A stretch of DNA of 61,186 nt from an uncultured Enterobacteriaceae bacterium (lineage in GTDB: Bacteria > Pseudomonadota > Gammaproteobacteria > Burkholderiales > SG8-39), in the NCBI GenBank assembly GCA_964400745.1, contig CAYNVY010000004.1, forward strand, positions 1-61,186, in the 5' to 3' direction. The notes beneath the pieces were generated by a model. That model made no database searches. It was not told the origin of the DNA and worked only from the letters and a program-made list of their open reading frames with translations. A program made the position numbers and the translations under genes. This document shows positions 35,289-61,186 of this stretch, one piece after another (the first letter of the stretch is position 1; every line of letters begins with the position of its first letter).

Positions 35289-35306
35289 TGGGTTATTGCG
35301 AATGCG

Positions 35307-47210: not shown

Positions 47211-47534
47211 TCAGCATTCGCGCAGGCCTGCCGCCGTCAGGCGATAGCGATAAGGCCGCCCCCCCCCGACGCGAAGCGCGAATCCCTTTACCACCAGGTG
47301 ATGCAGCAGCGTGTTCACATCGTTCGCCGACTTGCCGATGCGCTCGCGCAGCTCTGCGGCAGTCGACGCCGGAAAATCGCGGATTGTTTGCAGGGAGGCC
47401 TTGCGCCAGGTGGAGCGCAAACCCTGCGCGGGAGCGGCGCGACGCGCCTTGACTACGGGCTTGATCGCCGGAACGCGCGTACGCTCGCGCTCTGTTTCAA
47501 GCCGCTCGAAATCGATTAGCTGGGCGAGGTTCAT
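47211..47534 (-). CDS. Winged-helix protein
   Basis: STAAELRERIGKSANDVNTLLHHLVVKG...RPYRYRLT. Confidence 0.65.
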   Translation of the reverse strand: MNLAQLIDFERLETERERTRVPAIKPVVKARRAAPAQGLRSTWRKASLQTIRDFPASTAAELRERIGKSANDVNTLLHHLVVKGFALRVGGGRPYRYRLTAAGLREC

Positions 47535-47646
47535 GCTCTCTCTCCAGCCGCTTCCCTGGTCTTTTCCACTTCCCCTACCCCCTGCTTTATTTTTTTAAGA
47601 TTTCCAGCGTCGACGCGTTAAGGCGTTGCGCTGGATACCTGCACCG

Positions 47647-48018
47647 CTACTTCTTCTTCGGCTTGGTCTGTCCTACCAAGGCGGCCACTTCGGCGAGCAA
47701 CCCTTCCACGCGCTGCATCGTCGCCGCCTCGACATCCGACAGGTCACCCATGTAGCGTGCGATGAGGTAGTGGATCGGCGTCAGGTCGGCTTGCGTCTGG
47801 ATGTAGCGCTCCATCACATCGACCGAGATATGCCGGTTGCCTTCGTCGTTGAGCGCGCAGGACAGGTTCCCCGGCGCCATGTCTAGGTCGCCGGCCACCC
47901 GTTTCAGGCCCCGCTGGTAGACGCCGGCAGCGATCGCGTCGCGCACATTGCGAAAGCGCGTCGTGAGGTCAGGCTCTAGCTGTAAAGTCAACTGCTTAGG
48001 GTGGGCATTGATAATCAT
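47647..48018 (-). CDS. CII-like regulator
   Basis: LKRVAGDLDMAPGNLSCALN HTH; downstream of cro. Confidence 0.65.
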   Translation of the reverse strand: MIINAHPKQLTLQLEPDLTTRFRNVRDAIAAGVYQRGLKRVAGDLDMAPGNLSCALNDEGNRHISVDVMERYIQTQADLTPIHYLIARYMGDLSDVEAATMQRVEGLLAEVAALVGQTKPKKK

Positions 48019-48069
48019 AGAGAGGGATTCCTATCGTCCAATATCACTGGTTATCAACCGAAAAATGGT

Positions 48070-48107
48070 AAAAAAAAAGCCTGGTGCCCCGCTTTGGGAC
48101 ACCAGGC
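48070..48107 (-). terminator. tR1-like intrinsic terminator after cro
   Basis: gcctggtgtccc aaagc ggggcaccaggc followed by a T9 run on the minus strand. Confidence 0.7.
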
Positions 48108-48170
48108 CGAGGTCCACGCCCAAGCGCTGGCAGAGGGCGGGAAGGGAGGACGGAAATGCAACCGATTCGA

Positions 48171-48404
48171 TCATGCGGCCGCCGCTTGCTGTACCGGCTC
48201 CGACTGAACGTCGTAAATCTCGTTGAAGGAGACGATATGCCCCATCTTCGATGCCGCCACAATGAGTTTTCGCGCCGCGGCCGGCGGTATTTCAGGCCGG
48301 CCGGCCTCGTAGTGCGACACCATCGCTTTGCTGGTGCCGATGATTGCCGCGACCTTCTCTTGCGTGAGGTTCAGGCGGGTTCGGACGACTTTGAGGTTGC
48401 TCAT
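48171..48404 (-). CDS. Cro-like XRE regulator
   Basis: LTQEKVAAIIGTSKAMVSHYEAG; divergent from the repressor. Confidence 0.8.
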   Translation of the reverse strand: MSNLKVVRTRLNLTQEKVAAIIGTSKAMVSHYEAGRPEIPPAAARKLIVAASKMGHIVSFNEIYDVQSEPVQQAAAA

Positions 48405-48412
48405 GGCCGCAG

Positions 48413-48477
48413 AGTTTAGTACCACTGAACCGCATAAGTCAAGCGTGTCTAAACAAGCGCCTTTAGCGTGGCTGTAC
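48413..48477. promoter_or_regulatory. OR-like region: three 17-bp operators and the cro promoter
   Basis: Operators at 48414, 48438 and 48461; minus-strand TTGACT-N18-TAAACT. Confidence 0.75.
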
Positions 48478-48486
48478 TCTCGCGTT

Positions 48487-48861
48487 ATGACTATCGGCGC
48501 ACGCTTTCGACAGCTTCGACTCGCGCACACAAAGACCCAGGAAGAAATGGGCGCGCTTTGTGGCGTGACGAAGGGCATGGTTTCCCAGTGGGAATCTGAT
48601 CAAGGGATTCCGGGCACCGACCGGCTGCTGGCGCTACGCGAGACGATCGAATTTTCCATTGATTGGCTGCTTACCAATTCGGGTACGATGGATCCGAAGG
48701 GCGACGCGATCAAGGGAATGGATCCGCTGAAACGGGAGTTGATGCAGGTCGCGGAGAAGCTGCCCGATTATGCCATCGTGAAACTCACTCGGGAGGGGGA
48801 TTCTTATGCTCAACTCATCGACGAAGCCCAGAGCAGAAAAACGGGCAACGGCGAGCGCTAA
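48487..48861 (+). CDS. CI-like XRE repressor (no S24 peptidase domain)
   Basis: TIGARFRQLR...TQEEMGALCGVTKGMVSQWE...SIDWLL; 124 aa. Confidence 0.82.
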   Translation: MTIGARFRQLRLAHTKTQEEMGALCGVTKGMVSQWESDQGIPGTDRLLALRETIEFSIDWLLTNSGTMDPKGDAIKGMDPLKRELMQVAEKLPDYAIVKLTREGDSYAQLIDEAQSRKTGNGER

Positions 48862-48906
48862 GATATACGTTCTCCCTATACAGCTGCGCCTCGATCTGGA
48901 GTAGCG

Positions 48907-49242
48907 ATGCCACTTACCCCCTGCAAGGAATGCGGCCGCGAGATCTCCAACTCCGCTGCTACCTGCCCCCATTGCGGAGTAGCTCTTCCGGCGCTGACCG
49001 ATACCGAGAAAGCGCAGCTCGTCAAACTGTCCATGATGGCGCGCAGTCGCCACCTCGGCGGCGCAATGTTCCTCTTCGGATTTCTTGGCCTTGGAGCCAT
49101 CGCGCTCACTACTGGATCGCGTGAGTTATTCGTGACATTCTGGGATTTTGCGAAGTGGCTCATGGGCGTAGGCGCCGCGATCTACATCCTAGCTGAGATT
49201 CAGCGCAACATAGAAGTTCGCAAAGCCAAGCGCAGCCAGTAA
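48907..49242 (+). CDS. Zinc-ribbon membrane protein
   Basis: CKECG...CPHCG followed by two TM helices. Confidence 0.75.
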   Translation: MPLTPCKECGREISNSAATCPHCGVALPALTDTEKAQLVKLSMMARSRHLGGAMFLFGFLGLGAIALTTGSRELFVTFWDFAKWLMGVGAAIYILAEIQRNIEVRKAKRSQ

Positions 49243-49260
49243 CAGCAGCGTTTTCCTGCC

Positions 49261-49288
49261 GGCCCGCTCTCCGCGGGCCTTTGTTTTA
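49261..49288 (+). terminator. Terminator of the repressor operon
   Basis: ggcccgc tctcc gcgggcc tttgtttt. Confidence 0.65.
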
Positions 49289-49295
49289 CCCGAGA

Positions 49296-49337
49296 GTTTA
49301 GCCCCACTTGACTAAAGCGGATTAGTGCGGCTAAACT
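49296..49337 (+). promoter_or_regulatory. OL-like region: two operators and the early promoter
   Basis: Operators at 49296 and 49320; TTGACT(49308)-N18-TAAACT(49332). Confidence 0.75.
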
Positions 49338-49405
49338 GCCTCCGAATTGATAACGGAGGCAGCATGGCACGAGGTGAATCAGAAGCGCGGCGCGGTGGGC
49401 AGGGA

Positions 49406-49711
49406 CTACTCCCACCGATCCTTCGCGCGCGCCTCCTCGACCGTCTGCCACTGCATGTTCTCCGGAGCATCTGCTCCGCCGCGCTTGAGCGCGACCACAT
49501 GGTCAATCACATAGCCCGGGCACGGGCCGGTCGCTTTTTGAGTGACTGGACACGGGTGCAGACGTTTGAATGCGGCCTTGGCCGCGTAGCGGCGCTCAAT
49601 GCGGCCGCGCAGGTCGCGCTGGATGTTGGTCTGCTGTGGGTCGGGCGCATCGGCCCACACCGCATGGCTGACGAGCAGCGCCACGACTGCCAAAAGTTTG
49701 GTCATCACCAA
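49406..49711 (-). CDS. Small HNH-motif protein with signal peptide
   Basis: MTKLLAVVALLVSHAVWA; CP...CPGYVIDHVVALKRGGADAPENMQW. Confidence 0.75.
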   Translation of the reverse strand: MVMTKLLAVVALLVSHAVWADAPDPQQTNIQRDLRGRIERRYAAKAAFKRLHPCPVTQKATGPCPGYVIDHVVALKRGGADAPENMQWQTVEEARAKDRWE

Positions 49712-49731
49712 TTCTACCCCGGGCGCCAGCC

Positions 49732-49998
49732 GTGAATTCAGCGTGCCCCGATCGCCTGGCGTCTATCACCGCCTGGATCTGCGCCGCCGGCATTCTCATC
49801 GTGACGCTTCTTGGTTATCACCTCCAGAGCCGCCCGACCCCGGCGCCGGCCGTCGCGGCCGAACTACCCCGCGCCTGCGTCGCGCCCAAAGCCCCTGGCG
49901 AAACGCTGCGCATCACCGTCACCTATCGCGACGGACTGCTCGACGTTATCTGCCGCCCCGTGCATGCGGTCCTACCCCTGAAGAGGAGCCCACGATGA
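49732..49998 (+). CDS. Phage hypothetical membrane protein
   Basis: TM segment; ATGA-coupled to the next gene. Confidence 0.5.
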   Translation: MNSACPDRLASITAWICAAGILIVTLLGYHLQSRPTPAPAVAAELPRACVAPKAPGETLRITVTYRDGLLDVICRPVHAVLPLKRSPR

Positions 49999-50285
49999 TC
50001 ACATCCGACCCCCGCAGCTGGCGGCAGCGCCACCCCTCCGGCCGCGCCAGCGACGAGATCGCCAGCGCGCCGAGCGAGACCGGTCCGGACCGGAGGCAGA
50101 CGGTCAATCTCCCCGATACGCTCACCGTCCGCCTGGCCGCCACGCTCGCCGCGGCCGCGCACCTGAAGCTCGTCATCGATTACAACGATGGCGGCCAGGT
50201 CAAGCTCACCCCGGTCGTATTCCCTGGCATGCAGATCATCGCCTCGGATAGCGACCCGGACTTAAAGGTCAGGGAGGCAGCATGA
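49995..50285 (+). CDS. Early hypothetical protein
   Basis: GAGGAG RBS; coupled on both sides. Confidence 0.55.
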   Translation: MITSDPRSWRQRHPSGRASDEIASAPSETGPDRRQTVNLPDTLTVRLAATLAAAAHLKLVIDYNDGGQVKLTPVVFPGMQIIASDSDPDLKVREAA

Positions 50286-50515
50286 ACAAGTTCCAGCGCA
50301 ATCGCATCACGGCGATCTGCAACCAGCTCGCCACACTGCGCGAGCAGATCGACGAGCTGCACGACGAGGAGCAGGAAAAGTACGACAACATGCCCGAAGG
50401 CCTCCAGGCCGGCGACAAGGGCGACAAGATGCAGGAGGGTATCGATGCCCTCGAACAAGCGCTCAGCGCCATGGACGAACTCAGCGGCGCGCTCGACGAA
50501 GCGGTGATGGCATGA
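50282..50515 (+). CDS. Acidic coiled-coil phage protein
   Basis: DEEQEKYDNMPEGLQ motif; GGAGG RBS. Confidence 0.7.
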   Translation: MNKFQRNRITAICNQLATLREQIDELHDEEQEKYDNMPEGLQAGDKGDKMQEGIDALEQALSAMDELSGALDEAVMA

Positions 50516-50754
50516 GCATCGTGATCGTGGTCGGGCCAATGGCCTGCGGTAAAACGCGCAACGCCGAGGCGCTGCGAAAACACTTCGGCTGCAAACGGAT
50601 CGTCGAAGACTATGTGCGCGGCTTCAGCCCACCGCTCAAGGACGGCGATCTAGCACTGACGAATGAAGCCCCTCGCCGCCGGAAAGTCCCAGGCGTACGC
50701 GTCGTGGAGTTCGCCGATGCAATGAAGGAAATCAAGAAAGGAGGCCGCGTATGA
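50512..50754 (+). CDS. Small P-loop-containing phage protein
   Basis: GPMACGKT. Confidence 0.6.
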   Translation: MSIVIVVGPMACGKTRNAEALRKHFGCKRIVEDYVRGFSPPLKDGDLALTNEAPRRRKVPGVRVVEFADAMKEIKKGGRV

Positions 50755-50951
50755 GCACCCGCTACGGCGTGAAATGGCCGGATGGCTTGGTCACCGGCGG
50801 CATCACTGACAGCTACCGACTCGCCGCCTCGTATGCCAAGGATCACGACGGCACGGTCTACGAGATCCCGGCGCGGACCCGCCCGGGCGACGACGGCGAC
50901 CAGGAGTGCGGCCTGCCCGCCTGGTCATCGAGCGCATACGGTGGCCTATGA
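50751..50951 (+). CDS. Early hypothetical protein
   Basis: ATGA-coupled; AGGAGG RBS. Confidence 0.5.
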   Translation: MSTRYGVKWPDGLVTGGITDSYRLAASYAKDHDGTVYEIPARTRPGDDGDQECGLPAWSSSAYGGL

Positions 50952-51184
50952 ACCGCGCCATCAGCAGCCTACGCCGTCGCCTAGAGCGATGGGAACTCGG
51001 ACACCTGCGAGCCCATGCCGCCGATCTGGCGGAAAGGCTGGAAAAACTGGAGCACGAGCTGAACTTCGTGACCGATCGAGCCGAGTGGCTTGAGCGGTCG
51101 CTGCACGATCTCAACATGGATCTTGCCGAGCGCGACCTGAAGGTCGGCCTCACCAAAGACGGCCAAATCGGGTTGCTGGCATGA
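50948..51184 (+). CDS. Early coiled-coil hypothetical protein
   Basis: ATGA-coupled. Confidence 0.55.
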   Translation: MNRAISSLRRRLERWELGHLRAHAADLAERLEKLEHELNFVTDRAEWLERSLHDLNMDLAERDLKVGLTKDGQIGLLA

Positions 51185-51438
51185 GCGACAACGAGCACCG
51201 GATCAACCGATTCCCGACCGTCGCAGCCAACTGGGAACACTTCAACAGGGTGGACATTGCACCTAGTGCACCGCAAATCCAGCGAGATGAGATGCAGCGC
51301 GCGTTCATGGCCGGCGTATCGAGTGGCCTGGTACTCGCTCTTGCTGCTGAGCAAAGCGATGATTTCGCTGCAGGCCTCGCTAGGATCAACGCCGAGTTGG
51401 TGGCGTGGGCGGCAATGCGTAAAGCGAAACGCTCATGA
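51181..51438 (+). CDS. Early hypothetical protein
   Basis: ATGA-coupled; QRDEMQRAFMAG. Confidence 0.55.
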   Translation: MSDNEHRINRFPTVAANWEHFNRVDIAPSAPQIQRDEMQRAFMAGVSSGLVLALAAEQSDDFAAGLARINAELVAWAAMRKAKRS

Positions 51439-51698
51439 GCGCCCGCCCCGTCCTTCTCACCGACGACGAGCACCAGGAGCTCGATCGCCGTCTGACCGAA
51501 TGCGCGAGCGAGACCGCCCTGCGCCAGTATCTCGCCCAGAGCATCGTCCTGGAGCAGCTTCTGGCGGCTGTGAAGGCGCGCAGCATGAAGCGCACCGAGG
51601 CAACCTTACGCCGGCTCATTCGGCCTTCGCTCACCGTAGAGCGCGCGGCCTCGGCCGCGCACGAGCCACCCCCTATTGGCGAGGATCGCCTGCTATGA
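51435..51698 (+). CDS. Early hypothetical protein
   Basis: ATGA-coupled. Confidence 0.55.
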   Translation: MSARPVLLTDDEHQELDRRLTECASETALRQYLAQSIVLEQLLAAVKARSMKRTEATLRRLIRPSLTVERAASAAHEPPPIGEDRLL

Positions 51699-51774
51699 CG
51701 CGCCTCATCCTCGCCTGGCGGCTGTACACGCGTCTGCACTACACCTGGCGACTTGCCTGGGCGAAGGCGGCGCG

Positions 51775-52053
51775 ATGAACGAAGCGCTCCTGTTCGGCAG
51801 CACCTTCGTCGCCGTATTCGCACTCGGCCTGCAGTCGCTCAACGTCAACGGCGGCCACGCCTTCGCGGCGTTCCTCACCAGCTTTGTGATCGGCGGCTCG
51901 CACTTATTCCTCTATCGCCTCATGCCGCAGGCATCTGTGCCCGAACTCGCCGCTTACCTCTGCGGCGGGCCGTTCGGCATCGTCGCATCGATGTGGTTTC
52001 ACCGCCGCACCATCGGTCGGTGCAAATTGCCCCAACAGGAAAACAATCCATGA
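51775..52053 (+). CDS. Small multi-TM phage protein
   Basis: Three hydrophobic segments; coupled to the clamp gene. Confidence 0.6.
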   Translation: MNEALLFGSTFVAVFALGLQSLNVNGGHAFAAFLTSFVIGGSHLFLYRLMPQASVPELAAYLCGGPFGIVASMWFHRRTIGRCKLPQQENNP

Positions 52054-53132
52054 AGATCCGCCAGGCCGCAGCCCTCGCCGCGCACGTCGCCAGCCGCAGC
52101 TCCGCCATTCAGATACTGCAGCACGTGCGCATCGATGGCCGGCACATCACCGCCTGCGATATCTCGCAGCAGATCGAGATCCCGATCGATGCCATTGAAG
52201 GCTTGAACGGCGCCGTGTTCTGCGTGCACGCCGCGCGGCTTACGCGCATCCTCAAGGCGCTGCCCGAGGAGGCTGAGCTCAAGCTCAGGGTCAAGGATGC
52301 GCGCGTGTTCCTTAGCGCCGGCGCCACGCGCTACGAATTGAATGCCATGGCGCCGGAAGACTTCCCGCGCCTGGACATGCCCGAGGCCGGCGCGGACGGC
52401 GTTACTGTCCCGACCAAGCCGCTGGTCGACGCGCTGCGCTTTTGCACCCCGGCAATGGCGACCGCGGATATCCGCTACTACCTGAACGGCATGCACCTGG
52501 GCATCTTCCCCGGCCGTATGGAGATCACCGCCACCGACGGCCACCGCCTGCACCGCGCGCGCGTCCCGCTCGACGGCGGCGGTCGCCAATGCGCAGCGAT
52601 TCTGCCGTGGTCCAGCGTCGCCCGCATCATTGAAATTTCCGGCGAGCACAAGGACATCGAGCTCAGCCTGACCGACACCCTGGCGCTCATCGACACCGGA
52701 CGCGAAACGCTGTCGGCCAAGCTCATCGACGGCAAGTTTCCCGAAGCCGAGCGCGTCATCCCCGCCGGCCGGCCGGCGAGCGGCACCGTCCCGCGCCTGG
52801 CCTTCGTCGATGCGGCCAGGCGTGTCGCGCAAATTTTCGACGGCGAAAAGTTCCAGGGCATACAAGTCGACTTCACCCCCGGCGCGATCGAGCTCAGCGC
52901 CAAGAATGCAGGCCAGGAAACGGCCGCCGAGCGCTTCGAGTGGTCGGCCGTCGATACCCGCCTGAAGCCGCTATCGATCGGCTTCCAGTGGCAGTTCCTC
53001 GCCGAAGCGATCGAGGCCTTCCCCGGCGAGCGCGTCAACCTGCACCTGCCCGACAACGACCAGGGCTCGCTCTACGTCACCGACACCGACGACGGCAAGT
53101 ATCAGGTAGTCCTGATGCCGGCGCGGATCTGA
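52050..53132 (+). CDS. dnaN: Phage-encoded DNA polymerase III beta sliding clamp homologue
   Basis: EDFP, DIRYYLNG, ATDGHRL, KLIDGKFP...RVIP, VLMPARI; 360 aa. Confidence 0.88.
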   Translation: MKIRQAAALAAHVASRSSAIQILQHVRIDGRHITACDISQQIEIPIDAIEGLNGAVFCVHAARLTRILKALPEEAELKLRVKDARVFLSAGATRYELNAMAPEDFPRLDMPEAGADGVTVPTKPLVDALRFCTPAMATADIRYYLNGMHLGIFPGRMEITATDGHRLHRARVPLDGGGRQCAAILPWSSVARIIEISGEHKDIELSLTDTLALIDTGRETLSAKLIDGKFPEAERVIPAGRPASGTVPRLAFVDAARRVAQIFDGEKFQGIQVDFTPGAIELSAKNAGQETAAERFEWSAVDTRLKPLSIGFQWQFLAEAIEAFPGERVNLHLPDNDQGSLYVTDTDDGKYQVVLMPARI

Positions 53133-53155
53133 AACCCAAGCCACAGGAGACCAGC

Positions 53156-55087
53156 ATGAACGCACCCGCCACCACCGCCAGTTTGCAGGCCGCTGCACCC
53201 GCCACTTTTCAACTCGTCGCCATCGGCAAGATCGAGCCGTCAAAAAGCGAGATCCAGCGCATGCGCCGCGAGCATTTCACCAAGGAAGGTCTCGACCAGC
53301 TCGCGGCCAGCGTGCGCCAGGTCGGCGTCGCCGAGCCGCTACTGCTGCGGCCACTGGGCAAGGACGGCTTCGAGCTCATCGCCGGCGAACGCCGCTGGCT
53401 GGCCGCGCGCGCCGCAGGCCTCGCTGAAGTGCCCGCGATGGTGCGGCCGTGCACCGACGAGCAGGCGCTCGAACTCCAGCTGATCGAGAACCTGCAGCGC
53501 GTGGACCTGCACGAAATGGAGGAGGCCGAAGGCTACGACGCGCTGCGCAAGTTGAAGAAGCTCACCGCCGACCAGGTCGCCGAACAGGTCGGCAAAAGTC
53601 GCAGCCAGGTCTTCGCGCGCTTGAAGCTGCTCGAACTCTGCCCCGAGGCGCGCAAAGCCTTCTACGCCGGCGAAATGGAAGCCTCGGTCGCGCTGCTCGT
53701 CGCGCGTGTTCCGGGCGCCGAAGCGCAGCGCGCCCTGCTCAAAGATATCAGCGGCAAAGGCGAGTTCTACTGGGACCACGAAGGGCCGCCGACCTTCCGC
53801 CAGGTGCAGGAGCACGTGCAGGAGGCCTACATGGCCGACCTCAAGGGCGCATCGTTCAAGCTCGACGACGCCACGCTCCGCAAAGGCTGTACCACCTTCC
53901 TCGCCTGCACCGCCTGCCCCAAGCGCACCGGCAATCAGAAGGATCTGTTCACCGAAATCAAGAATCCAAACATCTGCACCGATCCGTTCTGCCTCAAGGC
54001 AAAGGAAAACGCGCACAAGGCGCGCGTGCGCGACGAGCTCGAAGCCAAGGGTGAGACCATCATCAGCGGCGACAAGGCGAAGAAGATCAAGCCGCACGCT
54101 TACAGCCGCGAGCTGAAGGACGGATACGTCGAACTCGATCAGGAGGATTACATCGGCGGCGGCTTCAAGACCTGGCGCAAAGCAGTCGGCAAGCAGCCCT
54201 TGGCGACCACACTGCTCGAATGTCCGCACACTGGCAAGCTGCTGCAGGTCGCCAAGCGCGAGGACGTGAATGCCGCGCTCAAGGCCAACGGCATCGATCC
54301 GAACAAGCGCATGGGCAGCGGATCGAGCAGTGATCAGAAGGCGAAGGAACGCAAGGCGCGGCTTGAAACTGCGATCCGGCTGCGCATCCTGGCCGATATC
54401 CGCACCGCCAGCCGCGCCCGTCAGTTCGATCGCGACGACACCATCCTGGTGGCCGGCGCTTTCTTCGATCGCCTCGGCTTCGACGGCTGCAAGCACCTGG
54501 TCGACGCCTGGAACGCGGCCGCCGGCATCGAAAAGCCGAAAGGACACGAGTACGTGCGCGACTTCGCAAAGAAGCTCCCCCAGCTCAGCGACGCCGAGCT
54601 GGGGGCACTATTCCTCGATATGGCGCTGATCAACGATTGCCACGTCGCCAGCTACAGCACTCCCGATGTGAAGGGACTCCTGGCCACCGCCAAACGCCTG
54701 GGCATCGATGTCGAGAAGATCCGGACAGAACTGACGGAGGCGGCGAAGGATAAGCAGGCCGCGAAGAAGAAAGCGGTGAAGGCCAAGCCGGCGGCCAAAG
54801 CAACGTCCGAAAAGGTGAAGGCGAAGGTCAAGCATGCGCCGGCCTTCATGGCACCGCTGCAGCCATCTGCCGTGCTTGCGGCGATCGTCGGCGACAAACC
54901 GCTCGTTCGCACCGAGATCACTAAGAAAATATGGCTGCACATCAAGACCAACGGCCTGCAGGACGCAACCAACCGCCGAATGATCAACGCGGACGAAAAA
55001 TTACAGGCCGTGTTCGGCGGAAAGAAACAGGTATCGATGTTCGATATGACGATGCTCGTCGCCAAGCAGCTGCAGGCTGCGAAATAA
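53156..55087 (+). CDS. ParB-like protein with Cys cluster and C-terminal SWIB/MDM2 domain
   Basis: FELIAGERRWLA, IENLQRVDL, HTH; CTACPKR...CTDPFC; FMAPLQPSAVLAAIVG...RTEITKKIW...LQDATNRRMINADEKL. Confidence 0.85.
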   Translation: MNAPATTASLQAAAPATFQLVAIGKIEPSKSEIQRMRREHFTKEGLDQLAASVRQVGVAEPLLLRPLGKDGFELIAGERRWLAARAAGLAEVPAMVRPCTDEQALELQLIENLQRVDLHEMEEAEGYDALRKLKKLTADQVAEQVGKSRSQVFARLKLLELCPEARKAFYAGEMEASVALLVARVPGAEAQRALLKDISGKGEFYWDHEGPPTFRQVQEHVQEAYMADLKGASFKLDDATLRKGCTTFLACTACPKRTGNQKDLFTEIKNPNICTDPFCLKAKENAHKARVRDELEAKGETIISGDKAKKIKPHAYSRELKDGYVELDQEDYIGGGFKTWRKAVGKQPLATTLLECPHTGKLLQVAKREDVNAALKANGIDPNKRMGSGSSSDQKAKERKARLETAIRLRILADIRTASRARQFDRDDTILVAGAFFDRLGFDGCKHLVDAWNAAAGIEKPKGHEYVRDFAKKLPQLSDAELGALFLDMALINDCHVASYSTPDVKGLLATAKRLGIDVEKIRTELTEAAKDKQAAKKKAVKAKPAAKATSEKVKAKVKHAPAFMAPLQPSAVLAAIVGDKPLVRTEITKKIWLHIKTNGLQDATNRRMINADEKLQAVFGGKKQVSMFDMTMLVAKQLQAAK

Positions 55088-55114
55088 GCCCACCCCACCA
55101 CACCAGGAGCCCAC

Positions 55115-55516
55115 ATGAACGCCCCCGAAACCGTAGCAGTCAAATTCACTCTCACCGCACCGATCACCATCACCCCGCCGCCGCTCAACGATGGCGAGCT
55201 ATGGGCCGGCATCGTCACCACCGAGAAAGGCCTGCACCACATCATCCTGATGCCCGGCGACCAAGCCGGTGCATCGTGGAAGAAGCAGATGGCCTGGGCG
55301 AAGAAAGCCGGCGGCGACCTGCCCGACCGCGTCGAACTCGCCACGCTGCGCCGCACCCTGCCCGAGGAATTCAAGCCCGAACGGTACTGGTCCAATGAGC
55401 AGCACGCAGCCGATTCTGACTATGCCTGGTGTCAGTACTTCTACTACGGCTACCAGAACAACACCACCATCAACGACAAGCTCCGCGCTCGGTCCGTCCG
55501 CAGAGTAGCCATTTAG
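55115..55516 (+). CDS. DGR target protein 1 (DUF1566/CLec-like)
   Basis: GGDLPDRVEL...YWS...AW...RSVRR; VR1 at the 3' end. Confidence 0.88.
   Translation: MNAPETVAVKFTLTAPITITPPPLNDGELWAGIVTTEKGLHHIILMPGDQAGASWKKQMAWAKKAGGDLPDRVELATLRRTLPEEFKPERYWSNEQHAADSDYAWCQYFYYGYQNNTTINDKLRARSVRRVAI
55399..55504 (+). repeat. DGR variable repeat VR1
   Basis: 106 bp; 9 differences from TR, all at TR adenines. Confidence 0.95.
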
Positions 55517-55550
55517 TCCTTCATCCATTCAACCATTCAGGGAGCCTGCA

Positions 55551-56012
55551 ATGATCACCCTTGACGCCATCAAGACCGAGCAAAGCAAGATTGAATCGAT
55601 GATCGCCACATTCGAAAAGCAATTGCTGACGCAGGAACCGCGCACGGTGTATTTCCCATCCATCAGCGTCAACCTTGCGCCCGGTGAGCACTACGCCGGC
55701 ATCATCCTCGGAAAAGACGGCGCTGCGCCGCATCACCTGATTCTCCTGCCCGGCGAGGCCGAGAGCATCACCTGGAAGGACGCCAAGGCGTGGGCCGCCA
55801 AAGCCGGCGGCGAACTCCCCACGCGCCGCGAGCAGGCCCTGCTCTATGCCAACCTCAAGGATCAGTTCCAGGAGCTTTCCTACTGGTCCTGCGAGCAGCA
55901 CGCAGCCCTTTCTGACTATGCCTGGTTTCAGAGCTTCGACACCGGCACCCAGCACTACTACGGCATCATCCTCAAGCTCCGCGCTCGGTCCGTCCGCAGA
56001 TTAGAAATTTAG
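55551..56012 (+). CDS. DGR target protein 2 (DUF1566/CLec-like)
   Basis: GGELPTRREQ...YWS...AW...RSVRR; VR2 at the 3' end. Confidence 0.88.
   Translation: MITLDAIKTEQSKIESMIATFEKQLLTQEPRTVYFPSISVNLAPGEHYAGIILGKDGAAPHHLILLPGEAESITWKDAKAWAAKAGGELPTRREQALLYANLKDQFQELSYWSCEQHAALSDYAWFQSFDTGTQHYYGIILKLRARSVRRLEI
55895..56000 (+). repeat. DGR variable repeat VR2
   Basis: 106 bp; 15 differences from TR, all at TR adenines. Confidence 0.95.
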
Positions 56013-56033
56013 TCCTTTAGCCCTTTTCTCAGC

Positions 56034-56387
56034 ATGGCACTGCACACCAACCTGCCGATTCACAAGGTCGCCTACGATCTCCTCGACACCATCACGGATC
56101 TCGCCAAGAACATGCCCCGCGATTTCAAGGCATCGATCGGCGGCAAGCTCCGCGATGAATGCGTCGCGATCGTCGTGCTGATCTTCCGTGCCAATGTCGC
56201 CACGGAGAAAGCGCCGCACTTGGGCACGCTGATCGAGCGCCTCCAGGTTGCGGAGCTGCTGCTCCGGCTCTCGCGCGACAAGCGGCTGATCTCGACCGGC
56301 CAGTACGCCAAGGCGATCGAGCTCACCAACAGCGTCGGCAAGCAGGCGGGTGGATGGCGCCGCTCCGCACTCTCGCCCGTTGCATGA
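56034..56387 (+). CDS. avd: DGR accessory variability determinant (four-helix bundle)
   Basis: LPIHKVAYDL...MPRDFKASIG...VGKQAGGW; 117 aa, between VR2 and TR. Confidence 0.88.
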   Translation: MALHTNLPIHKVAYDLLDTITDLAKNMPRDFKASIGGKLRDECVAIVVLIFRANVATEKAPHLGTLIERLQVAELLLRLSRDKRLISTGQYAKAIELTNSVGKQAGGWRRSALSPVA

Positions 56388-57781
56388 TGGTCAAGGCCAC
56401 CATGCCTGCGCGAATGTTTAATCTGGTTGTGCCGCTGGCTCACGAGGCCACCGCCATGCGCACCACGGAGACCGCTGGCAGCCGCCAGAACGCGTCCGGC
56501 GCAGTTTCCCCGCTGATCGGTGCCAACCTTCGGCAGGGCGACGTGGATAGCACGACAGGACGCAGCACGCAGCCAATTCTGACTATGCCTGGTATCAGAA
56601 CTTCAACAACGGCAACCAGAACAACAACAACATCAACAACAAGCTCCGCGCTCGGTCCGTCCGCAGATGAACCCGGCCGCCACCATGCTGATTTTTCTTT
56701 CACCGACCTGGTGCAGGCGTATTTCGACTGCCGCCGCACCAAGCGCAACAGCGCCAGCGCCCTGGCGTTCGAGCAGGATCTGGAGCGCAACCTCTTTCGC
56801 CTATACGAGGAACTGACCGCCGGCGCCTACCGGCCCGGGCGCTCGATCTGCTTCGTTATCACCCGGCCAAAAGCCCGCGAGGTGTGGGCGGCCGACTTCC
56901 GCGACCGCATCGTGCACCACCTGTTCTACAACCAGGTCGCACCGCGCTTCTATGCCGCATTCATCGCCGACAGCTGCGCTTGCATCCCCGGCCGCGGCAC
57001 GCTCTACGCCGCCGAGCGCCTGGAGGCCAAGATCCGCAGCGCCACGCAGAACTGGTCCAGACGCGTGCACTACCTCAAGCTCGACCTGGCCAACTTCTTT
57101 GTCAGCATCGACAAGCGCGTCCTGCAGCTGCTGCTCGCCGTGCGTATCACCGAGCCCTGGTGGTTGCAGCTCGCCGAGACCATCCTCTTCCACGACCCGC
57201 GCCAGGATTTCGAACTGCGCGGATCGCCGGCGCTGCTCGACCTCGTGCCGCCGCACAAGCGCCTGGCCAGCCAGCCGGCGCACCGGGGCCTGCCGATCGG
57301 CAACCTGTCCAGCCAGTTCTTCGCCAACGTCTACCTGGACGTGCTCGACCAGTTCGTCAAACACCGGCTGCGCTGCCGGCATTACGTGCGCTATGTCGAC
57401 GACTTTATCCTGCTGCACGAATCGCCGCCGTGGCTGAACCGCGCCAAGGCGGAGATCGAGCACCTGCTCGCCGATCGCCTGGCGGCGCGCATCAACCCGG
57501 CCAAGACCATTCTCCAGCCCGTCGATCGCGGCGTCGACTTCGTCGGCCAGGTGATCAAGCCCTGGCGCCGCACCGTGCGCCGGCGGACCTATCACGAGGC
57601 GATCAGCCGCACCGCGACCAGCGAGGCCCCGGATCTGTTCATCACCGCCAACAGCTATTTCGGCATGCTGCGCCAGGCCAGCCACAGCCACACCGATCGT
57701 GCGCGGCTGGCGAACGTGCTACGCGGGCGGGGGCATTCGGTCAATAAGCAACTCACCCAAACCTACAGGAGAAGCATGTGA
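56384..57781 (+). CDS. DGR reverse transcriptase (start uncertain; catalytic region begins ~56690)
   Basis: FRDRIVHH, LKLDLANFF, GLPIGNLSSQFFAN, YVRYVDDF, GVDFVG. Confidence 0.93.
   Translation: MMVKATMPARMFNLVVPLAHEATAMRTTETAGSRQNASGAVSPLIGANLRQGDVDSTTGRSTQPILTMPGIRTSTTATRTTTTSTTSSALGPSADEPGRHHADFSFTDLVQAYFDCRRTKRNSASALAFEQDLERNLFRLYEELTAGAYRPGRSICFVITRPKAREVWAADFRDRIVHHLFYNQVAPRFYAAFIADSCACIPGRGTLYAAERLEAKIRSATQNWSRRVHYLKLDLANFFVSIDKRVLQLLLAVRITEPWWLQLAETILFHDPRQDFELRGSPALLDLVPPHKRLASQPAHRGLPIGNLSSQFFANVYLDVLDQFVKHRLRCRHYVRYVDDFILLHESPPWLNRAKAEIEHLLADRLAARINPAKTILQPVDRGVDFVGQVIKPWRRTVRRRTYHEAISRTATSEAPDLFITANSYFGMLRQASHSHTDRARLANVLRGRGHSVNKQLTQTYRRSM
56562..56667 (+). ncRNA. DGR template repeat (TR)
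   Basis: AAC-rich invariant copy of both VRs (35 adenines; 11 AAY codons in the target frame). Confidence 0.95.
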
Positions 57782-58164
57782 GCAATACCCCAAAGATCGT
57801 AGTGTTCTGCGGCTCCTCGCGTTACGTCGACGTCATGGCGGTCTGCGCCTGGTTGATTGAACGCGACGAGAAAGCGATCGCTATGGCGCTGCACTTGCTG
57901 CCCGTCTGGTACAGCCCGAATCTGCCGGATGATCATCTAGCCGAACACGAAGGTGTAGCCGCCGAAATGGACGAGCTACACCTGCGCAAGATCGACCTGG
58001 CGGCGGAGATCTTCGTCGTCAATCGCTGCGACTACATCGGCGATAGCACCAGGCGCGAGATCGCGCACGCGGAAGCGCTTGGCAAACCGATCCGCTGGTA
58101 CACCCATGATCCGGTCGGCATCGAGGTCGAGGCGCGGATCAAGGCATTCCTGAAGGAGGACTAG
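57778..58164 (+). CDS. Nucleoside deoxyribosyltransferase-like small Rossmannoid protein
   Basis: VFCGSSRY...HLRKIDLAAEIFVVN...YIGDSTRREIAHAEALGKPI. Confidence 0.6.
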   Translation: MSNTPKIVVFCGSSRYVDVMAVCAWLIERDEKAIAMALHLLPVWYSPNLPDDHLAEHEGVAAEMDELHLRKIDLAAEIFVVNRCDYIGDSTRREIAHAEALGKPIRWYTHDPVGIEVEARIKAFLKED

Positions 58165-58165
58165 C

Positions 58166-58633
58166 GTGAGCGAGAAGGACATCAATCGCTGGCAGGACAC
58201 GGTGACACCGCGGACGCCAGGCGAGTGGAAGATGGGTTCGGGCGGGAGCTGGGACATGACCGACGTTCAGCCGGTTCCGGATGAAATGCTGGCCGAGCTC
58301 GCACGGCACTACTACTCGGCAGGATGCCCATGGAACTGCCGTTCGATGCCGCTATCCGATGGGGACCGCGAATACATGTTCCTGCTCTATTTCTGCATGC
58401 AGGGCTTGATCGCTCGGATGCGTAAAGCCGAACAGGCGGCGGCAGCATCGCAGCTGGTGACCGTCGATGAAATGTTCCTGCGCGCCGAGTTCGAGCGCAT
58501 GCACCACGGCCGCGATCTGTCTCGGCACTACTTGCGCGGGACGTATTACTCCCCGCACATCGCCGCGCTGTGGAACCAGCACGTCAAGACCGCGACGATG
58601 CTCGCGAACGTTCTTCCGCAGGAGAAAGCATGA
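58166..58633 (+). CDS. Phage hypothetical protein
   Basis: AGGAGG RBS; coupled to the next gene. Confidence 0.55.
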   Translation: MSEKDINRWQDTVTPRTPGEWKMGSGGSWDMTDVQPVPDEMLAELARHYYSAGCPWNCRSMPLSDGDREYMFLLYFCMQGLIARMRKAEQAAAASQLVTVDEMFLRAEFERMHHGRDLSRHYLRGTYYSPHIAALWNQHVKTATMLANVLPQEKA

Positions 58634-59340
58634 GCGCCAGCAGCAAAATCGAATGGACTGAGGCAACTTGGAACCCCGTCACCGGCTGCACCAAGGTCAG
58701 CCAGGGCTGCAAACACTGCTATGCGGAGCGGGACTGGGCGCGGCTATCAGCCCCGCGCGATAAACCGAATGTGTACACCGGTCGAGAGTTCACCGATGTG
58801 CAATGCCACTCCGAGCGCCTCGACTGGCCGCTCCGGAAAAACAAGCCGCTACGGATCTTCGTCAACAGCATGTCGGACCTGTTTCATGAGTCGGTGCCCA
58901 ATCAGTTCATCGCCGACGTATTCGCCGTGATGGCGTGCACGACCAGGCACACATATCAGATATTGACCAAGCGGCCTCGGCGCATGCTTGAATGGTTCCG
59001 CTGGCTCGACGCGGAGAATCACCCGTTTGGGTTTCCGACCGCCGTCGATCCTACGAAGGTCTGGCCGCAATGGACGCCGGTGCGCGACAATCGCGCTGGT
59101 TACGACAATTGCGGACCCCTATGGCCACTCGAAAATGTCTGGCTCGGCGTCAGCGTCGAAGACCAGGCTGCGGCGGATGAGCGCATCCCGCTGCTGCTGC
59201 AGACACCGGCGGCGGTGCGGTGGATCTCCGCGGAGCCGCTGCTCGGACCGATCGATATCACTGCCATCAGACGCACTAGCGCGGACGGGTATATGCGTCC
59301 CCTAGACGGGCGCATTCACGACGAATATCCAGAGCAGTGA
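58630..59340 (+). CDS. Phage Gp37/Gp68 (DUF5131) protein, probably internally deleted
   Basis: IEWTEATWNPVTGCTKVSQGCKHCYA, FVNSMSDLFH, QILTKRP, NVWLGVSVE, SAEPLLG. Confidence 0.85.
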   Translation: MSASSKIEWTEATWNPVTGCTKVSQGCKHCYAERDWARLSAPRDKPNVYTGREFTDVQCHSERLDWPLRKNKPLRIFVNSMSDLFHESVPNQFIADVFAVMACTTRHTYQILTKRPRRMLEWFRWLDAENHPFGFPTAVDPTKVWPQWTPVRDNRAGYDNCGPLWPLENVWLGVSVEDQAAADERIPLLLQTPAAVRWISAEPLLGPIDITAIRRTSADGYMRPLDGRIHDEYPEQ

Positions 59341-59552
59341 AATCACCCGTCATCACGGTGCTGCCCTCGGTCGGCACGCCCGACCTCGAAACTGCGATAG
59401 ACTATTTCGTCCCGCTCGTGCTCTCACGTCTCAAGCCCAATGACAAAAACGCCCCCGACGATCAAGGCAGCCTGCTACCTGCGCAGCAGCAAGGACAGGT
59501 CCGATGTCTCGATCGACGCCCAGCGCCGCGCACTCGGCAAGCTCGCCGCTGA
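59337..59552 (+). CDS. Small ORF overlapping the integrase start (possible RDF)
   Basis: GTGA-coupled to the upstream gene; function inferred from position only. Confidence 0.35.
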   Translation: MKSPVITVLPSVGTPDLETAIDYFVPLVLSRLKPNDKNAPDDQGSLLPAQQQGQVRCLDRRPAPRTRQARR

Positions 59553-61014
59553 GCGCGGCCTGGTCATCGTCCGCGAGTTCGCGGATACGGTGCTATCCGG
59601 CAAGGACGACAACCGCCCCGCCTTCCTGGAGCTGCTGCGCGAGCTGCGCAAACGGAGCCGCCCCTGGTCGGTGATCCTGCTCCTCGACCCCGAGCGTCTG
59701 GCGCGCAATCGATACGTAGCCACCGCCTTCGAACAGGACTGCGAGGCCGCCAACGTGCAGGTGATTTTCGCCAGCCTGCCCGAGTCCAACCCCGTGGTCG
59801 ACATGATCCTGAAGCCGGTCATGCACGGCATCGCGCACTATTTCAGCTGGCAGTCTAAGATGAAGGGGCTCGCGGGGCTCGCCGAAAATGTGCGCCAGGG
59901 ATGGCGCGCTGGCGGAAGGGCTCCGCTGGGGTATCAGTTGGAACATGTAGCCACCGGCGCGGTGCGCGAGGGGCAACCCGTGACTAAATCGCGTTTAATC
60001 CCCTCAGACGACGCGACGGCGGTCGGGGCATACCTCAAGGCCAGGGCGGCCGGGATCTCGCGCGCCGCGGCCCTGGTGAAGCTGCCGCGGCCGATTGCGG
60101 ACACTTCGCTGATCGGGATGGAGTGGAACGCGCTGACCTACGCCGGCCACACCGTCTGGAACGTGCACAACGAATACCACGGCCCGCGCTTGGGCGTCGC
60201 CGGCAGCCGCGGCGGCTACAAGGGCGGCGTCAAGCGCCGGCCGCGCGAGGAGTGGCAGATCCAGCGCAAGACCCATCCCGCGCTGATTACCGACGCCGAG
60301 GCCGAGACCATCATCGCGCGCCTCGAGGCCTCGCCCTACAAGCGCACCAGGCGCACCACGGCCGCCTACCTGCTCACCGGGCTCCTCAAGGCGCCGGACG
60401 GCACGCCCTGGTACGGCGACGCCAACAATAATCGGCGTTTCTACCGCATCGGGCGCAAAGGCGCCGGCGCCGGGCGCTCCGTCGCGATCGACGCCGTCGA
60501 CAAAACCGTCCTGGCCTGCGTCACATCGGATTTGCGCTCGCCCAAGTTCGTCGCTGGCGCCTACGCCAGCACGCTCAAGCACCTGACGCGCGACAGCTCG
60601 GCCGAGATTCAGGAACTCAGGCTCCAGGACGCAGCCCTGACCAAGCGCATCAGCCGCTTCATGGACATGGCCGGCGAGCTATCGAGCCCCGGGCCGGTGG
60701 TGCGGAAGATCGACGAGATCGAGAAGGAACGCGCGGCGATCGCGGCGCGGATAGAGGAATTGATCGAACTGGACCGCCAGGCGGCGGCCATGACCAAAAT
60801 CAGCGAGCACCACGTCGGCAAGCTCCTGGCCGACATGGCGGACGAGATCAAGACCTACGACCGCGAGCAGCTGAAAGACTGGCTGGCGGCCGTCCTGGAC
60901 CGGGTGGAACTCGACCCGCAGCGCATGAGCTGCGAGCTGCACTACCGGATCCCGTTGAGCCAACGGAATAGACTGGCGTCCCCAGGGGGATTCGAACCCC
61001 CGTACTCACCGTGA
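59440..61014 (+). CDS. Large serine recombinase (phage integrase)
   Basis: YLRSS catalytic motif, SIDAQ, SGKDDNRPAF, RLARN, APLGY, HPALIT, YLLTGLL, coiled coil. Confidence 0.93.
   Translation: MTKTPPTIKAACYLRSSKDRSDVSIDAQRRALGKLAAERGLVIVREFADTVLSGKDDNRPAFLELLRELRKRSRPWSVILLLDPERLARNRYVATAFEQDCEAANVQVIFASLPESNPVVDMILKPVMHGIAHYFSWQSKMKGLAGLAENVRQGWRAGGRAPLGYQLEHVATGAVREGQPVTKSRLIPSDDATAVGAYLKARAAGISRAAALVKLPRPIADTSLIGMEWNALTYAGHTVWNVHNEYHGPRLGVAGSRGGYKGGVKRRPREEWQIQRKTHPALITDAEAETIIARLEASPYKRTRRTTAAYLLTGLLKAPDGTPWYGDANNNRRFYRIGRKGAGAGRSVAIDAVDKTVLACVTSDLRSPKFVAGAYASTLKHLTRDSSAEIQELRLQDAALTKRISRFMDMAGELSSPGPVVRKIDEIEKERAAIAARIEELIELDRQAAAMTKISEHHVGKLLADMADEIKTYDREQLKDWLAAVLDRVELDPQRMSCELHYRIPLSQRNRLASPGGFEPPYSP
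60972..60987. repeat. Right att core
   Basis: actggcgtccccaggg; overlaps the tRNA-Glu 3' end and the integrase 3' end. Confidence 0.92.
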
Positions 61015-61049
61015 AAGGGTGATGTCCTAGGCCTCTAGACGATGGGGAC
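60974..61049 (-). tRNA. tRNA-Glu(UUC)
   Basis: GTCCCCATCGTCTAGAGGCCTAGGAC...TTC anticodon...GGTTCGAATCC...GGGGACGCCA; 76 nt. Confidence 0.97.
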
Positions 61050-61086
61050 TAAAGGGCTTGGTAAAAACCAGATGGTGCTGGTCGTT

Positions 61087-61162
<76 letters not shown>

Positions 61163-61186
61163 ACGAAAGGCGCGAATTATACCGTT

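What the first reader, a model, noticed from the sequence alone, without database searches (positions are those of the whole stretch)
55115..57781. Dual-target DGR in the prophage early operon, diversifying two small non-tail CLec-like proteins
Seen: TR (56562-56667) aligns without gaps to VR1 (55399-55504; 9 differences) and VR2 (55895-56000; 15 differences). All 24 differences are at TR adenines, and the two VRs changed differently, so each was mutagenised independently. avd and an RT with PIGNLSSQ and YVDD are intact. Known: the model phage DGR (Bordetella BPP-1) diversifies the tail tropism protein Mtd. Here the targets are stand-alone 133- and 153-aa DUF1566-like paralogues with no signal peptide or fibre scaffold. 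They sit in the repressor-controlled early arm between ParB/clamp and the integrase, over 30 kb from the tail genes and on the opposite strand. Inference: they are hypervariable intracellular binders, for example for counter-defence, host takeover or phage-phage competition, and possibly a heteromer with combinatorial diversity.
Basis: partly seen in the sequence, partly recalled or inferred. Interest (0 to 1): 0.9.

Follow-up and report, generated by a model that had tools for sequence, protein, structure and literature searches.

The report
Prophage retroelement diversifying two small lectin-fold proteins
A prophage carries a mutagenic retroelement that rewrites the binding surfaces of two small lectin-fold proteins with no export signal, encoded among its DNA-handling genes rather than its tail genes; the arrangement is real and common in related prophages, but what the proteins bind is unknown.

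Summary
TR 56562-56667 aligns without gaps to VR1 (9 differences) and VR2 (15). All 24 differences lie at TR adenines, in codon positions 1 or 2. avd and the RT are intact. No third VR exists in the assembled genome.

The targets are 133- and 153-aa stand-alone C-type-lectin-fold proteins of the Lcl_C/DUF1566 type. They sit in a tightly packed + strand block from ParB to the integrase.

The arrangement is not unique. Burkholderia phage Magia has the same two short lectin-fold targets in its non-structural arm, noted in its 2021 genome announcement.

In my survey, 201 of 223 target genes in 95 of 102 related loci match a local TR, with 2225 adenine-site against 24 other mismatches. Two VRs per locus is the commonest state. 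The neighbours are recombination, ParB, methylase and integrase genes, not tail genes.

The intracellular-binder reading is plausible but untested. Consensus contigs of four runs from one study showed no VR variation.

Verdict: a genuine DGR and a new member of a poorly studied known kind. Target function is open. Interest is moderate.

The parts
55115..55516 (+). Target 1 (T1), 133 aa, stand-alone C-type-lectin-fold protein of the Lcl_C/DUF1566 type
   Evidence: ORF. Pfam Lcl_C E 1.1e-5, below the gathering score. AF2 pLDDT 92.4. Best fold match is the Lcl C-terminal domain 8q4e, E 1.6e-4. 154 similar-length homologues.
55399..55504 (+). VR1
   Evidence: 9 differences from the TR, all at TR adenines, all in codon positions 1 or 2.
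55505..55525 (+). IMH-like stretch after VR1; similar to the one after VR2 and unlike the TR
   Evidence: The assignment as IMH is by analogy with the BPP-1 paradigm.
55551..56012 (+). Target 2 (T2), 153 aa: conserved N-terminal helix (residues 4-27) plus a C-type-lectin-fold domain
   Evidence: ORF. Pfam Lcl_C E 0.0025, below the gathering score. AF2 pLDDT 92.4. Fold match to 8q4e, E 1.7e-4. 1595 similar-length homologues.
55895..56000 (+). VR2
   Evidence: 15 differences from the TR, all at TR adenines, all in codon positions 1 or 2.
56001..56021 (+). IMH-like stretch after VR2
56034..56387 (+). avd, accessory variability determinant, 117 aa
   Evidence: Pfam bAvd 2.7e-13; phrog_3206 'Avd protein of DGR' 1.8e-34.
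56562..56667 (+). Template repeat (TR), 106 nt with 35 A
56585..57781 (+). DGR reverse transcriptase. The start is uncertain (ATG 56585 inside the TR, or GTG near 56711); the RT domain begins at about 56690.
   Evidence: RVT_1 4.1e-12; phrog_1423 4.4e-113; LPIGNLSSQ and YVDD in the translation.
52050..55087 (+). Upstream genes of the same block: sliding clamp (52050-53132) and a ParB-SWIB fusion (about 53153-55087)
   Evidence: The gap from the ParB stop to the T1 start is 27 nt.
57778..61014 (+). Downstream genes of the same block: two unknowns (128 and 155 aa), DUF5131 (58630-59340) and a serine-recombinase integrase (59440-61014)
   Evidence: The integrase 3' end overlaps tRNA-Glu at 60974-61049 on the - strand.

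Best explanation
This is a complete diversity-generating retroelement of the kind that looks active. Avd and the RT copy the TR transcript with random bases at adenines, and the cDNA replaces the last ~106 nt of two tandem paralogous genes. This rewrites up to about 20 surface codons of a C-type-lectin fold. That part is near certain (about 0.95). The two products are small stand-alone proteins with no export signal. They are encoded in the integrase-proximal arm, which reads away from the switch region, next to clamp, ParB and other DNA-handling genes. I infer that they are made in the cytoplasm together with those genes, on induction or early in infection. I infer further that they act purely as variable binders in an intracellular conflict. 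They could neutralise host defence proteins, or bind proteins of competing phages. The direction of the conflict is unknown. This functional part is inference, at about 0.45. The cassette is one member of a large family in betaproteobacterial prophages, in which two or more such targets per element is the rule.
For: DGR. TR/VR geometry with 24 of 24 differences at adenines, in codon positions 1 or 2, and no other mismatch in 106 nt. Intact avd and RT. IMH-like tails shared by the VRs only.

Family. 201 of 223 targets in 95 of 102 related loci match a TR lying between avd and RT. There are 2225 adenine-site against 24 other mismatches and no VR identical to its TR. VRs per locus: one in 14 loci, two in 58, three in 21, four in 2. 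11 of the 12 most variable domain columns in each family alignment sit at TR-adenine codons.

Non-structural setting. The nearest neighbours in 83 non-identical loci are recombination exonucleases, RdgC, dNMP phosphatases, ParB, CI-like repressors, methyltransferases, PAPS reductase, HNH and integrase. No head or tail family is among the 25 commonest on either side. An integrase lies downstream in 39 of 51 loci with at least 6 kb of flank. In the window the gaps ParB-T1, T1-T2 and T2-avd are 27, 34 and 21 nt.

Cytoplasmic, binder only. 10 of 195 targets in RT loci have a hydrophobic window above my crude threshold, and most of those are artefacts of taking the longest ORF. 118 of 195 have no cysteine in the scaffold. 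Only 8 longer relatives were found, and they read as tandem or read-through fusions. Only avd and RT recur with the targets.

Against a virion docking role. The same T2-type protein occurs in records with a tail sheath (9 of 42) and without one (33 of 42). T1-type targets occur in the myophage Magia and in this sheath-less-looking prophage.
Against: There is no expression, localisation or binding data of any kind; no RNA run holds the stretch. Genome position does not exclude a virion protein. In the circularised phage the targets are only about 10 kb from the distal tail genes. The nearest solved folds are extracellular adhesin domains: Legionella Lcl and the Bdellovibrio fibre protein Bd2740. 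Every DGR whose biology has been worked out in a phage acts on a receptor-binding protein (Roux 2021 section 9). VR1 and VR2 are identical in the consensus contigs of other runs of the one study: X3 spans VR1, X4 spans VR2 and X2 covers part of VR2, so no ongoing variation was seen. No effector or partner gene is conserved beside the targets, so how binding would be turned into an effect is open.
Confidence: 0.5

Rival explanations
1. The targets are virion-associated host-recognition accessories. They would be small adhesins that dock in trans onto tail fibres or the baseplate, T2 perhaps through its N-terminal helix, so the DGR would do here what it does in BPP-1: switch tropism.
For: This is the only experimentally established role of phage DGRs (Roux 2021 section 9). 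The closest solved folds are adhesin or fibre-tip domains, Lcl and Bd2740. PHROG 4245, which both targets match through their C-terminal parts, is a 583-position family, so the same domain also ends longer phage proteins. T2 has a conserved helix-plus-lectin layout that weakly resembles collectin neck-CRD units (low TM scores). After excision the genes lie only about 10 kb from the distal tail genes.
Against: The genes are on the strand opposite all structural genes and are packed among DNA-handling genes in the window and in relatives. The same conserved protein occurs in sheath-positive and sheath-negative phages, so a conserved docking partner is unlikely. Some T1-type members have no extra N-terminal segment at all.
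Confidence: 0.25
2. The targets are released at lysis, or otherwise act outside the cell, as soluble lectins. They might mask receptors on debris or on neighbouring cells, or bind matrix polysaccharide.
For: The lectin fold and its extracellular structural relatives. A binder-only protein needs no partner for masking.
Against: There is no export signal. The genes are not placed in a lysis or late module. Nothing links variant genotype to benefit once the protein is free in the medium.
Confidence: 0.1
3. The element is a recently frozen relic. The VRs were rewritten in the past but homing no longer happens in this lineage.
For: VR1 and VR2 are identical to the window in the consensus contigs of other runs of the same study. 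Wu et al. 2018 discarded over half of candidate DGRs as defective (passage).
Against: There is no non-adenine mismatch in 2 x 106 nt, and all ORFs are intact with the RT motifs present. Contigs drop rare variants and all four runs are from one study, with depths of about 2-13, so the test had little power.
Confidence: 0.1

Closest known systems
DGR of Burkholderia phage Magia (MT701587; Microbiol Resour Announc 2021, PMC7883833; passages read)
   Same: Temperate phage with avd-TR-RT and two short lectin-fold targets of 126 and 120 aa, 42% identical to T1. The targets lie in the non-structural arm, on the repressor's strand, beside RecT, a nuclease and an ATPase. Both VRs differ from the TR almost only at adenines: 15 adenine-site and 0 other mismatches, and 8 adenine-site and 1 other, in 90 nt.
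   Different: Magia is a myophage. Its two targets are 6 kb apart rather than in tandem, and neither has the T2-type N-terminal helix. The announcement suggests host-range change or adaptation, with no test.
Bordetella phage BPP-1 DGR (mtd-avd-TR-brt), recalled as the textbook model and referred to
   Same: The same machinery: Avd, RT, adenine-specific TR-to-VR transfer, VR at the C-terminal end of a C-type-lectin fold, and an IMH at the VR 3' end.
   Different: BPP-1 has a single target, and Mtd is a tail-fibre tip protein encoded with the tail genes. Here there are two 133- and 153-aa domain-only proteins among DNA-handling genes.
DUF1566-class (category d, CLec2) DGR targets such as Legionella LdtA (Wu et al. 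2018, PMC5758913; passages read)
   Same: The VR lies in a DUF1566-like lectin fold. According to the paper, about half of this class are short, domain-only proteins, and 13% of DGRs have two targets.
   Different: LdtA is a surface lipoprotein on a chromosomal island. The proteins here have no lipobox or signal peptide and are prophage-borne.
DGR targets thought to act inside cells: cyanobacterial regulatory proteins (PMC7517822) and putative antigen sensors of multicellular bacteria (bioRxiv 10.1101/2023.09.22.558884); abstracts in the search listing only
   Same: They are precedent that DGR-varied lectin folds can act in the cytoplasm as ligand sensors.
   Different: Those are large, multi-domain cellular proteins with signalling or NTPase modules. 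Here the lectin domain stands alone and the element belongs to a phage.

Membership tests
Diversity-generating retroelement (DGR) | TR/VR pair whose differences are confined to TR adenines | tested here: met
   24 of 24 differences are at adenines, with 0 other mismatches in 2 x 106 nt.
Diversity-generating retroelement (DGR) | Reverse transcriptase of the DGR type (IGxxxSQ-type motif, which I recall as diagnostic, plus YxDD) | tested here: met
   LPIGNLSSQ and YVDD in the translation; RVT_1 4.1e-12; phrog_1423 4.4e-113. No RT phylogeny was made.
Diversity-generating retroelement (DGR) | Accessory protein Avd (or HRDC) | tested here: met
   bAvd 2.7e-13, above its cut-off; phrog_3206 1.8e-34.
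Diversity-generating retroelement (DGR) | IMH at the 3' end of the VR, differing from the TR counterpart | tested here: met
   A shared 25-nt G+C-rich end is followed by tails that are alike in VR1 and VR2 and unlike the TR. Function was not tested.
Diversity-generating retroelement (DGR) | Observed mutagenic homing (VR variants arising over time) | tested here: inconclusive
   Only consensus contigs of 4 runs from one study were available, and the VRs were identical in them. Relatives show family-wide adenine-codon hypervariability.
Pfam PF07603 Lcl_C (formerly DUF1566) | Score at or above the curated gathering threshold (34.9 bits) | tested here: not met
   T1 scores 26.1 bits and T2 18.5 bits. 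Many homologues carry a precomputed PF07603 hit.
Pfam PF07603 Lcl_C (formerly DUF1566) | Same fold as the solved Lcl C-terminal domain | tested here: met
   Foldseek top hit is 8q4e_A, E 1.7e-4 and 1.6e-4, TM 0.52-0.63. The family profile against PDB sequences gives E 0.0016.
Mtd-like phage receptor-binding DGR target | Encoded with the tail genes and carrying an N-terminal part that joins it to the tail fibre | tested here: not met
   The genes are on the opposite strand among clamp, ParB and integrase genes. The proteins are 133 and 153 aa with only 27-43 residues before the lectin domain. No tail family is among the commonest neighbours in relatives.
Mtd-like phage receptor-binding DGR target | Presence in the virion | not testable with these tools
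   This needs virion proteomics.

The most novel reading that the evidence does not exclude
A large, overlooked class of temperate-phage DGRs in Betaproteobacteria does not diversify tail proteins. Instead it diversifies sets of two to four free cytoplasmic lectin-fold binders, made together with the recombination and partition genes. These would work like an intracellular antibody repertoire, against host defence proteins or against rival phages.
Probability: 0.35. Interest if true: 0.85.

Novelty: new member of a known kind. Interest (0 to 1): 0.45.

Why it matters
Phage DGRs are understood through one model, tropism switching by a tail protein. This cassette is one of at least about 80 non-identical relatives, several of them in cultured strains. 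They show a conserved alternative: several domain-only lectin-fold targets with no export signal, placed beside recombination, partition, methylase and integrase genes. They occur in phages with and without contractile tails. If these proteins act inside the cell, targeted hypermutation would be a tool of intracellular phage-host or phage-phage conflict. It would also give a natural, compact scaffold of about 130 aa for evolving binders. If they turn out to be virion adhesins encoded away from the tail module, that would change how DGR targets are classified as 'structural' or 'unknown' in surveys. Both outcomes can be tested in cultivable systems.

Tried and rejected
Read evidence for ongoing variation. 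Only Logan contigs of four runs from one study were on offer. Laid on 54900-57900, they show VR1 (X3, whole; X4, part) and VR2 (X4, whole; X2 and X3, parts) identical to the window. The contig of the likely source run breaks in the TR. Contigs drop minority variants and depth was low, so this neither shows nor excludes activity.

No RNA holder was listed for the stretch, so nothing can be said on expression.

The T2 homotrimer job (complex prediction, 3 copies, alignment A2) returned 'no answer' with scores 0.00 and 0.14 against a mark of 0.42. It is not evidence either way.

Fused or longer forms of T2. Only 8 proteins of 277-396 aa were found among 306 candidates. By eye they are two targets fused in tandem, or read-through past the usual stop. 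No informative domain fusion emerged.

ESM Atlas for T2 gave unnamed, mostly viral clusters of about 150 aa and no functional lead.

Promoter and terminator scan of 47000-61186. Counts did not exceed shuffles. I note only a promoter-like site at 49308-49337 (+) and no +-strand terminator-like site from there to the contig end. This is not evidence of an operon.

Megablast of 50000-61186 against the phage records matched only the tRNA end. No close relative of this prophage is in that collection.

In Shewanella phage vB_Sb_QDWS I found no TR within the 11-kb locus I fetched. The rest of the record was not searched.

Literature searches found no paper assigning a function to short non-structural phage DGR targets. 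These searches cover only the held library, supplements were closed, and the supplementary tables of Wu 2018 and Roux 2021 may list this family.

Caveats on my survey:
- Loci from genome contigs and IMG/VR partly duplicate each other: 93 loci with the RT cluster collapse to 84 with non-identical RTs.
- Gene calls were a crude GC3 filter using the longest ORFs.
- I passed 150 of 155 upstream and 150 of 155 downstream neighbours to the PHROG scans, and only the 25 commonest families of 118 and 186 were shown.
- 22 of 223 targets failed the TR match.
Full report
1. THE OBSERVATION

- TR 56562-56667 is 106 nt and holds 35 adenines.
- VR1 55399-55504 differs at 9 positions and VR2 55895-56000 at 15.
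- All 24 differences are at TR adenines, and all fall in codon position 1 or 2 of the target frames. This is the AAC-codon design typical of DGRs.
- Five adenines changed in both VRs, each time to a different base, so the two VRs were written separately.
- There is no non-adenine mismatch in either VR.

The shared 22-nt G+C-rich 3' end occurs three times in the window against 0.01 expected. Beyond it, VR1 and VR2 continue alike (TAGnnATTTAGTCCTT) while the TR does not. This fits an IMH / IMH* pair.

A TR pattern with N at each A finds only these three sites in the window's own assembly. The window is a whole contig of a 401-contig genome that is 88% complete. A remote third target is therefore not seen, but cannot be excluded in missing sequence.

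2. THE GENES

- T1 (55115-55516, 133 aa) and T2 (55551-56012, 153 aa) give weak Lcl_C (formerly DUF1566) matches, below Pfam's cut-off. They are 52% identical over 112 residues.
- AF2 models built on family alignments are confident, pLDDT 92.4 for each. T1 has a loosely predicted 27-residue N-terminus followed by the domain. T2 has a helix at residues 4-27, two short hairpins, then the domain.
- For both models Foldseek ranks the Legionella Lcl C-terminal domain first (8q4e, E about 1.6e-4, TM 0.5-0.6). The Bdellovibrio Bd2740 C-terminal domain comes next, then animal C-type lectin domains. The T2 family profile reaches 8q4e by sequence at E 0.0016.
- avd (56034-56387) and the RT are clear. 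The RT translation holds LPIGNLSSQ and YVDD.
- The RT start is uncertain. The in-frame choices are the ATG at 56585, inside the TR, or the GTG near 56711.

3. THE SETTING IN THE WINDOW

- Positions 1 to about 15.7 kb are host genes: an aldehyde dehydrogenase, a LysR regulator, TctC, a hybrid kinase and others.
- A Fic-domain gene and a DNA methylase (15.9-18.7 kb) begin the prophage.
- The - strand then carries tail, head, portal, terminase, primase and a CII-like gene, from about 19 to 48 kb.
- An HTH_3 protein sits at 48171-48578 on the - strand.
- From about 49.3 kb the + strand runs through small unknowns, a clamp, a ParB-SWIB fusion, T1, T2, avd, TR, RT, two unknowns and DUF5131. It ends in a serine-recombinase integrase whose end overlaps tRNA-Glu.
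- The gaps ParB-T1, T1-T2 and T2-avd are 27, 34 and 21 nt, and the RT stop overlaps the next start.

That this arm is 'early' and 'repressor-controlled' is inferred from synteny with lambdoid phages; it is not shown.

The '30 kb from the tail genes' applies to the integrated map only. Across the att junction of the excised circle the distance is about 10 kb.

4. IT IS NOT ALONE

A tblastn search of T1 against phage records finds 10 records. In Burkholderia phage Magia the record annotates two 'lectin fold domain proteins', genes 57 and 47, as possible DGR targets. They sit beside the immunity repressor, a nuclease, RecT, an ATPase, Avd and an RT. The 2021 announcement says so in two sentences.

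I located Magia's TR. Gene 57 differs from it at 15 adenine sites and 0 others, and gene 47 at 8 adenine sites and 1 other, in 90 nt.

Wu et al. 2018 already report that 13% of DGRs have two targets. They also report that about half of the DUF1566-class targets are short, domain-only proteins.

5. FAMILY SURVEY

- T1 has 154 and T2 has 1595 similar-length homologues.
- The scaffolds are conserved, including T2's N-terminal helix. 11 of the 12 most variable domain columns in each alignment are at TR-adenine codons.
- Scans returned 78 loci from species genomes, mostly Burkholderiales and Rhodocyclales, among them cultured Massilia, Paraburkholderia, Cupriavidus and Dechloromonas. IMG/VR gave 80 loci out of 231 hits.
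- Of the 158 loci, 118 have an RT and 111 an Avd within reach.
- In 102 loci with both, 201 of 223 target genes match a TR lying between avd and RT with at most 2 non-adenine mismatches in 80 nt. In total there are 2225 adenine-site against 24 other mismatches.
- No VR equals its TR. The median is 11 changes.
- VRs per locus: one in 14 loci, two in 58, three in 21, four in 2.

Two or more small targets is therefore the norm for this family. The two collections overlap: 84 of 93 RTs are non-identical.

6. WHERE THE CASSETTE SITS IN RELATIVES

- The recurrent neighbour families are tyrosine integrases, DUF5131, DNA methylases, HNH, RecE-like exonuclease, RdgC, CI-like repressor, CII and VapE-type primase.
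- In 83 non-identical loci, 125 of 155 nearest upstream and 129 of 155 nearest downstream genes are on the targets' strand.
- An integrase of four annotated clusters lies downstream in 39 of 51 loci with at least 6 kb of flank.
- PHROG scans of 150 upstream and 150 downstream neighbours list exonucleases, dNMP phosphatases and kinase, ParB, repressors, integrases, methylases, PAPS reductase and HNH. No head, tail or connector family is among the 25 commonest of either list; a holin family matched three members.
- Only avd and RT travel consistently with the targets.
- 31 loci, mostly Massilia, have a lone 123-aa homologue without an RT. Their setting is chromosomal: M28 peptidase, a phosphoesterase, a Ser/Thr kinase and FtsW.

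7. WHAT THE PROTEINS MIGHT DO

No member shows a convincing signal peptide by a crude hydropathy scan, and 118 of 195 have no scaffold cysteine. Longer forms are rare and look like tandem or read-through fusions. These are domain-only binders with no export signal.

The T2-type protein is found in 9 of 42 viral records with a tail sheath and in 33 of 42 without one; among records at least 90% complete the figure is 8 of 31. T1-type targets occur in the myophage Magia and in this prophage, which shows a tape measure but no sheath match among the proteins I scanned. A conserved small protein is unlikely to dock on such different tails. That weakens the virion-adaptor rival but does not remove it.

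I therefore favour, at about 0.45, cytoplasmic variable binders made with the DNA-handling genes and acting in an intracellular conflict. The rivals are:
- a virion or host-recognition accessory (0.25);
- an extracellular soluble lectin (0.1);
- a frozen relic (0.1).

The remainder is left unassigned.

8. WHAT I COULD NOT SHOW

- Expression: no RNA run holds the stretch.
- Ongoing variation: only consensus contigs from one study were available, and the VRs in them are identical.
- Oligomeric state: the trimer job gave no verdict.
- Any ligand.

9. VERDICT

The dual small-target, non-structural layout is real. It is already recorded for phage Magia, is foreseeable from published surveys, and is the rule in a large betaproteobacterial prophage family.

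I rate it a new member of a known kind. The interesting part is an open question about the family: what free lectin-fold binders with no export signal do for a temperate phage. This window raises that question but cannot answer it.

Noticed in passing
window 53153-55087 (+): The phage ParB carries a C-terminal SWIB/MDM2 domain (Pfam E 2.4e-23) after ParB_N and HTH_ParB. The same 715-aa type recurs in 15 related loci (cluster 18).
   Followed up: partly
window 52050-53132 (+): A prophage-encoded DNA polymerase III beta sliding clamp with all three domains, directly upstream of ParB.
   Followed up: no
window 5459-5562: Six head-to-tail copies of a 13-nt unit (GGGTCGGTCGACT-like) in an intergenic stretch of the host part of the contig.
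   Followed up: no
window 15929-17509 (-) and 17873-18739 (-): A 525-aa Fic/DOC-domain protein and a DNA methyltransferase sit at the left edge of the prophage, between the host genes and the tail end.
   Followed up: no
window 60974-61049 (-) against 59440-61014 (+): The 3' end of the serine-integrase ORF overlaps tRNA-Glu, with tRNA-Ala next to it. This is probably the attachment site. No long direct repeat marking the other prophage end was found.
   Followed up: partly
L047, L051, L061, L068-L072, L074-L083 and others (31 loci): Mostly Massilia genomes hold a lone 123-aa homologue of the targets with no avd or RT nearby. Its neighbours are chromosomal-looking: M28 peptidase, metallophosphoesterase, Ser/Thr kinase and FtsW/RodA. 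It could be an undiversified cellular cousin of the family.
   Followed up: partly
e.g. L116 9593-10201, L136 9569-10198, L087 2521-3129: In some cassettes the first target is a third, roughly 200-aa DUF1566-type protein (GGFYAGR... start). It shares only the last ~65 residues with T1 and T2.
   Followed up: no
window 56603-56625: The contigs of the probable source run end and restart inside the TR, a repeat-induced assembly break. DGR repeats can fragment metagenome assemblies at exactly the informative spot.
   Followed up: no
window 33236-35410 (-): The major head protein and the maturation protease are encoded as one 723-aa ORF (phrog_4523, E 1.1e-220).
   Followed up: no
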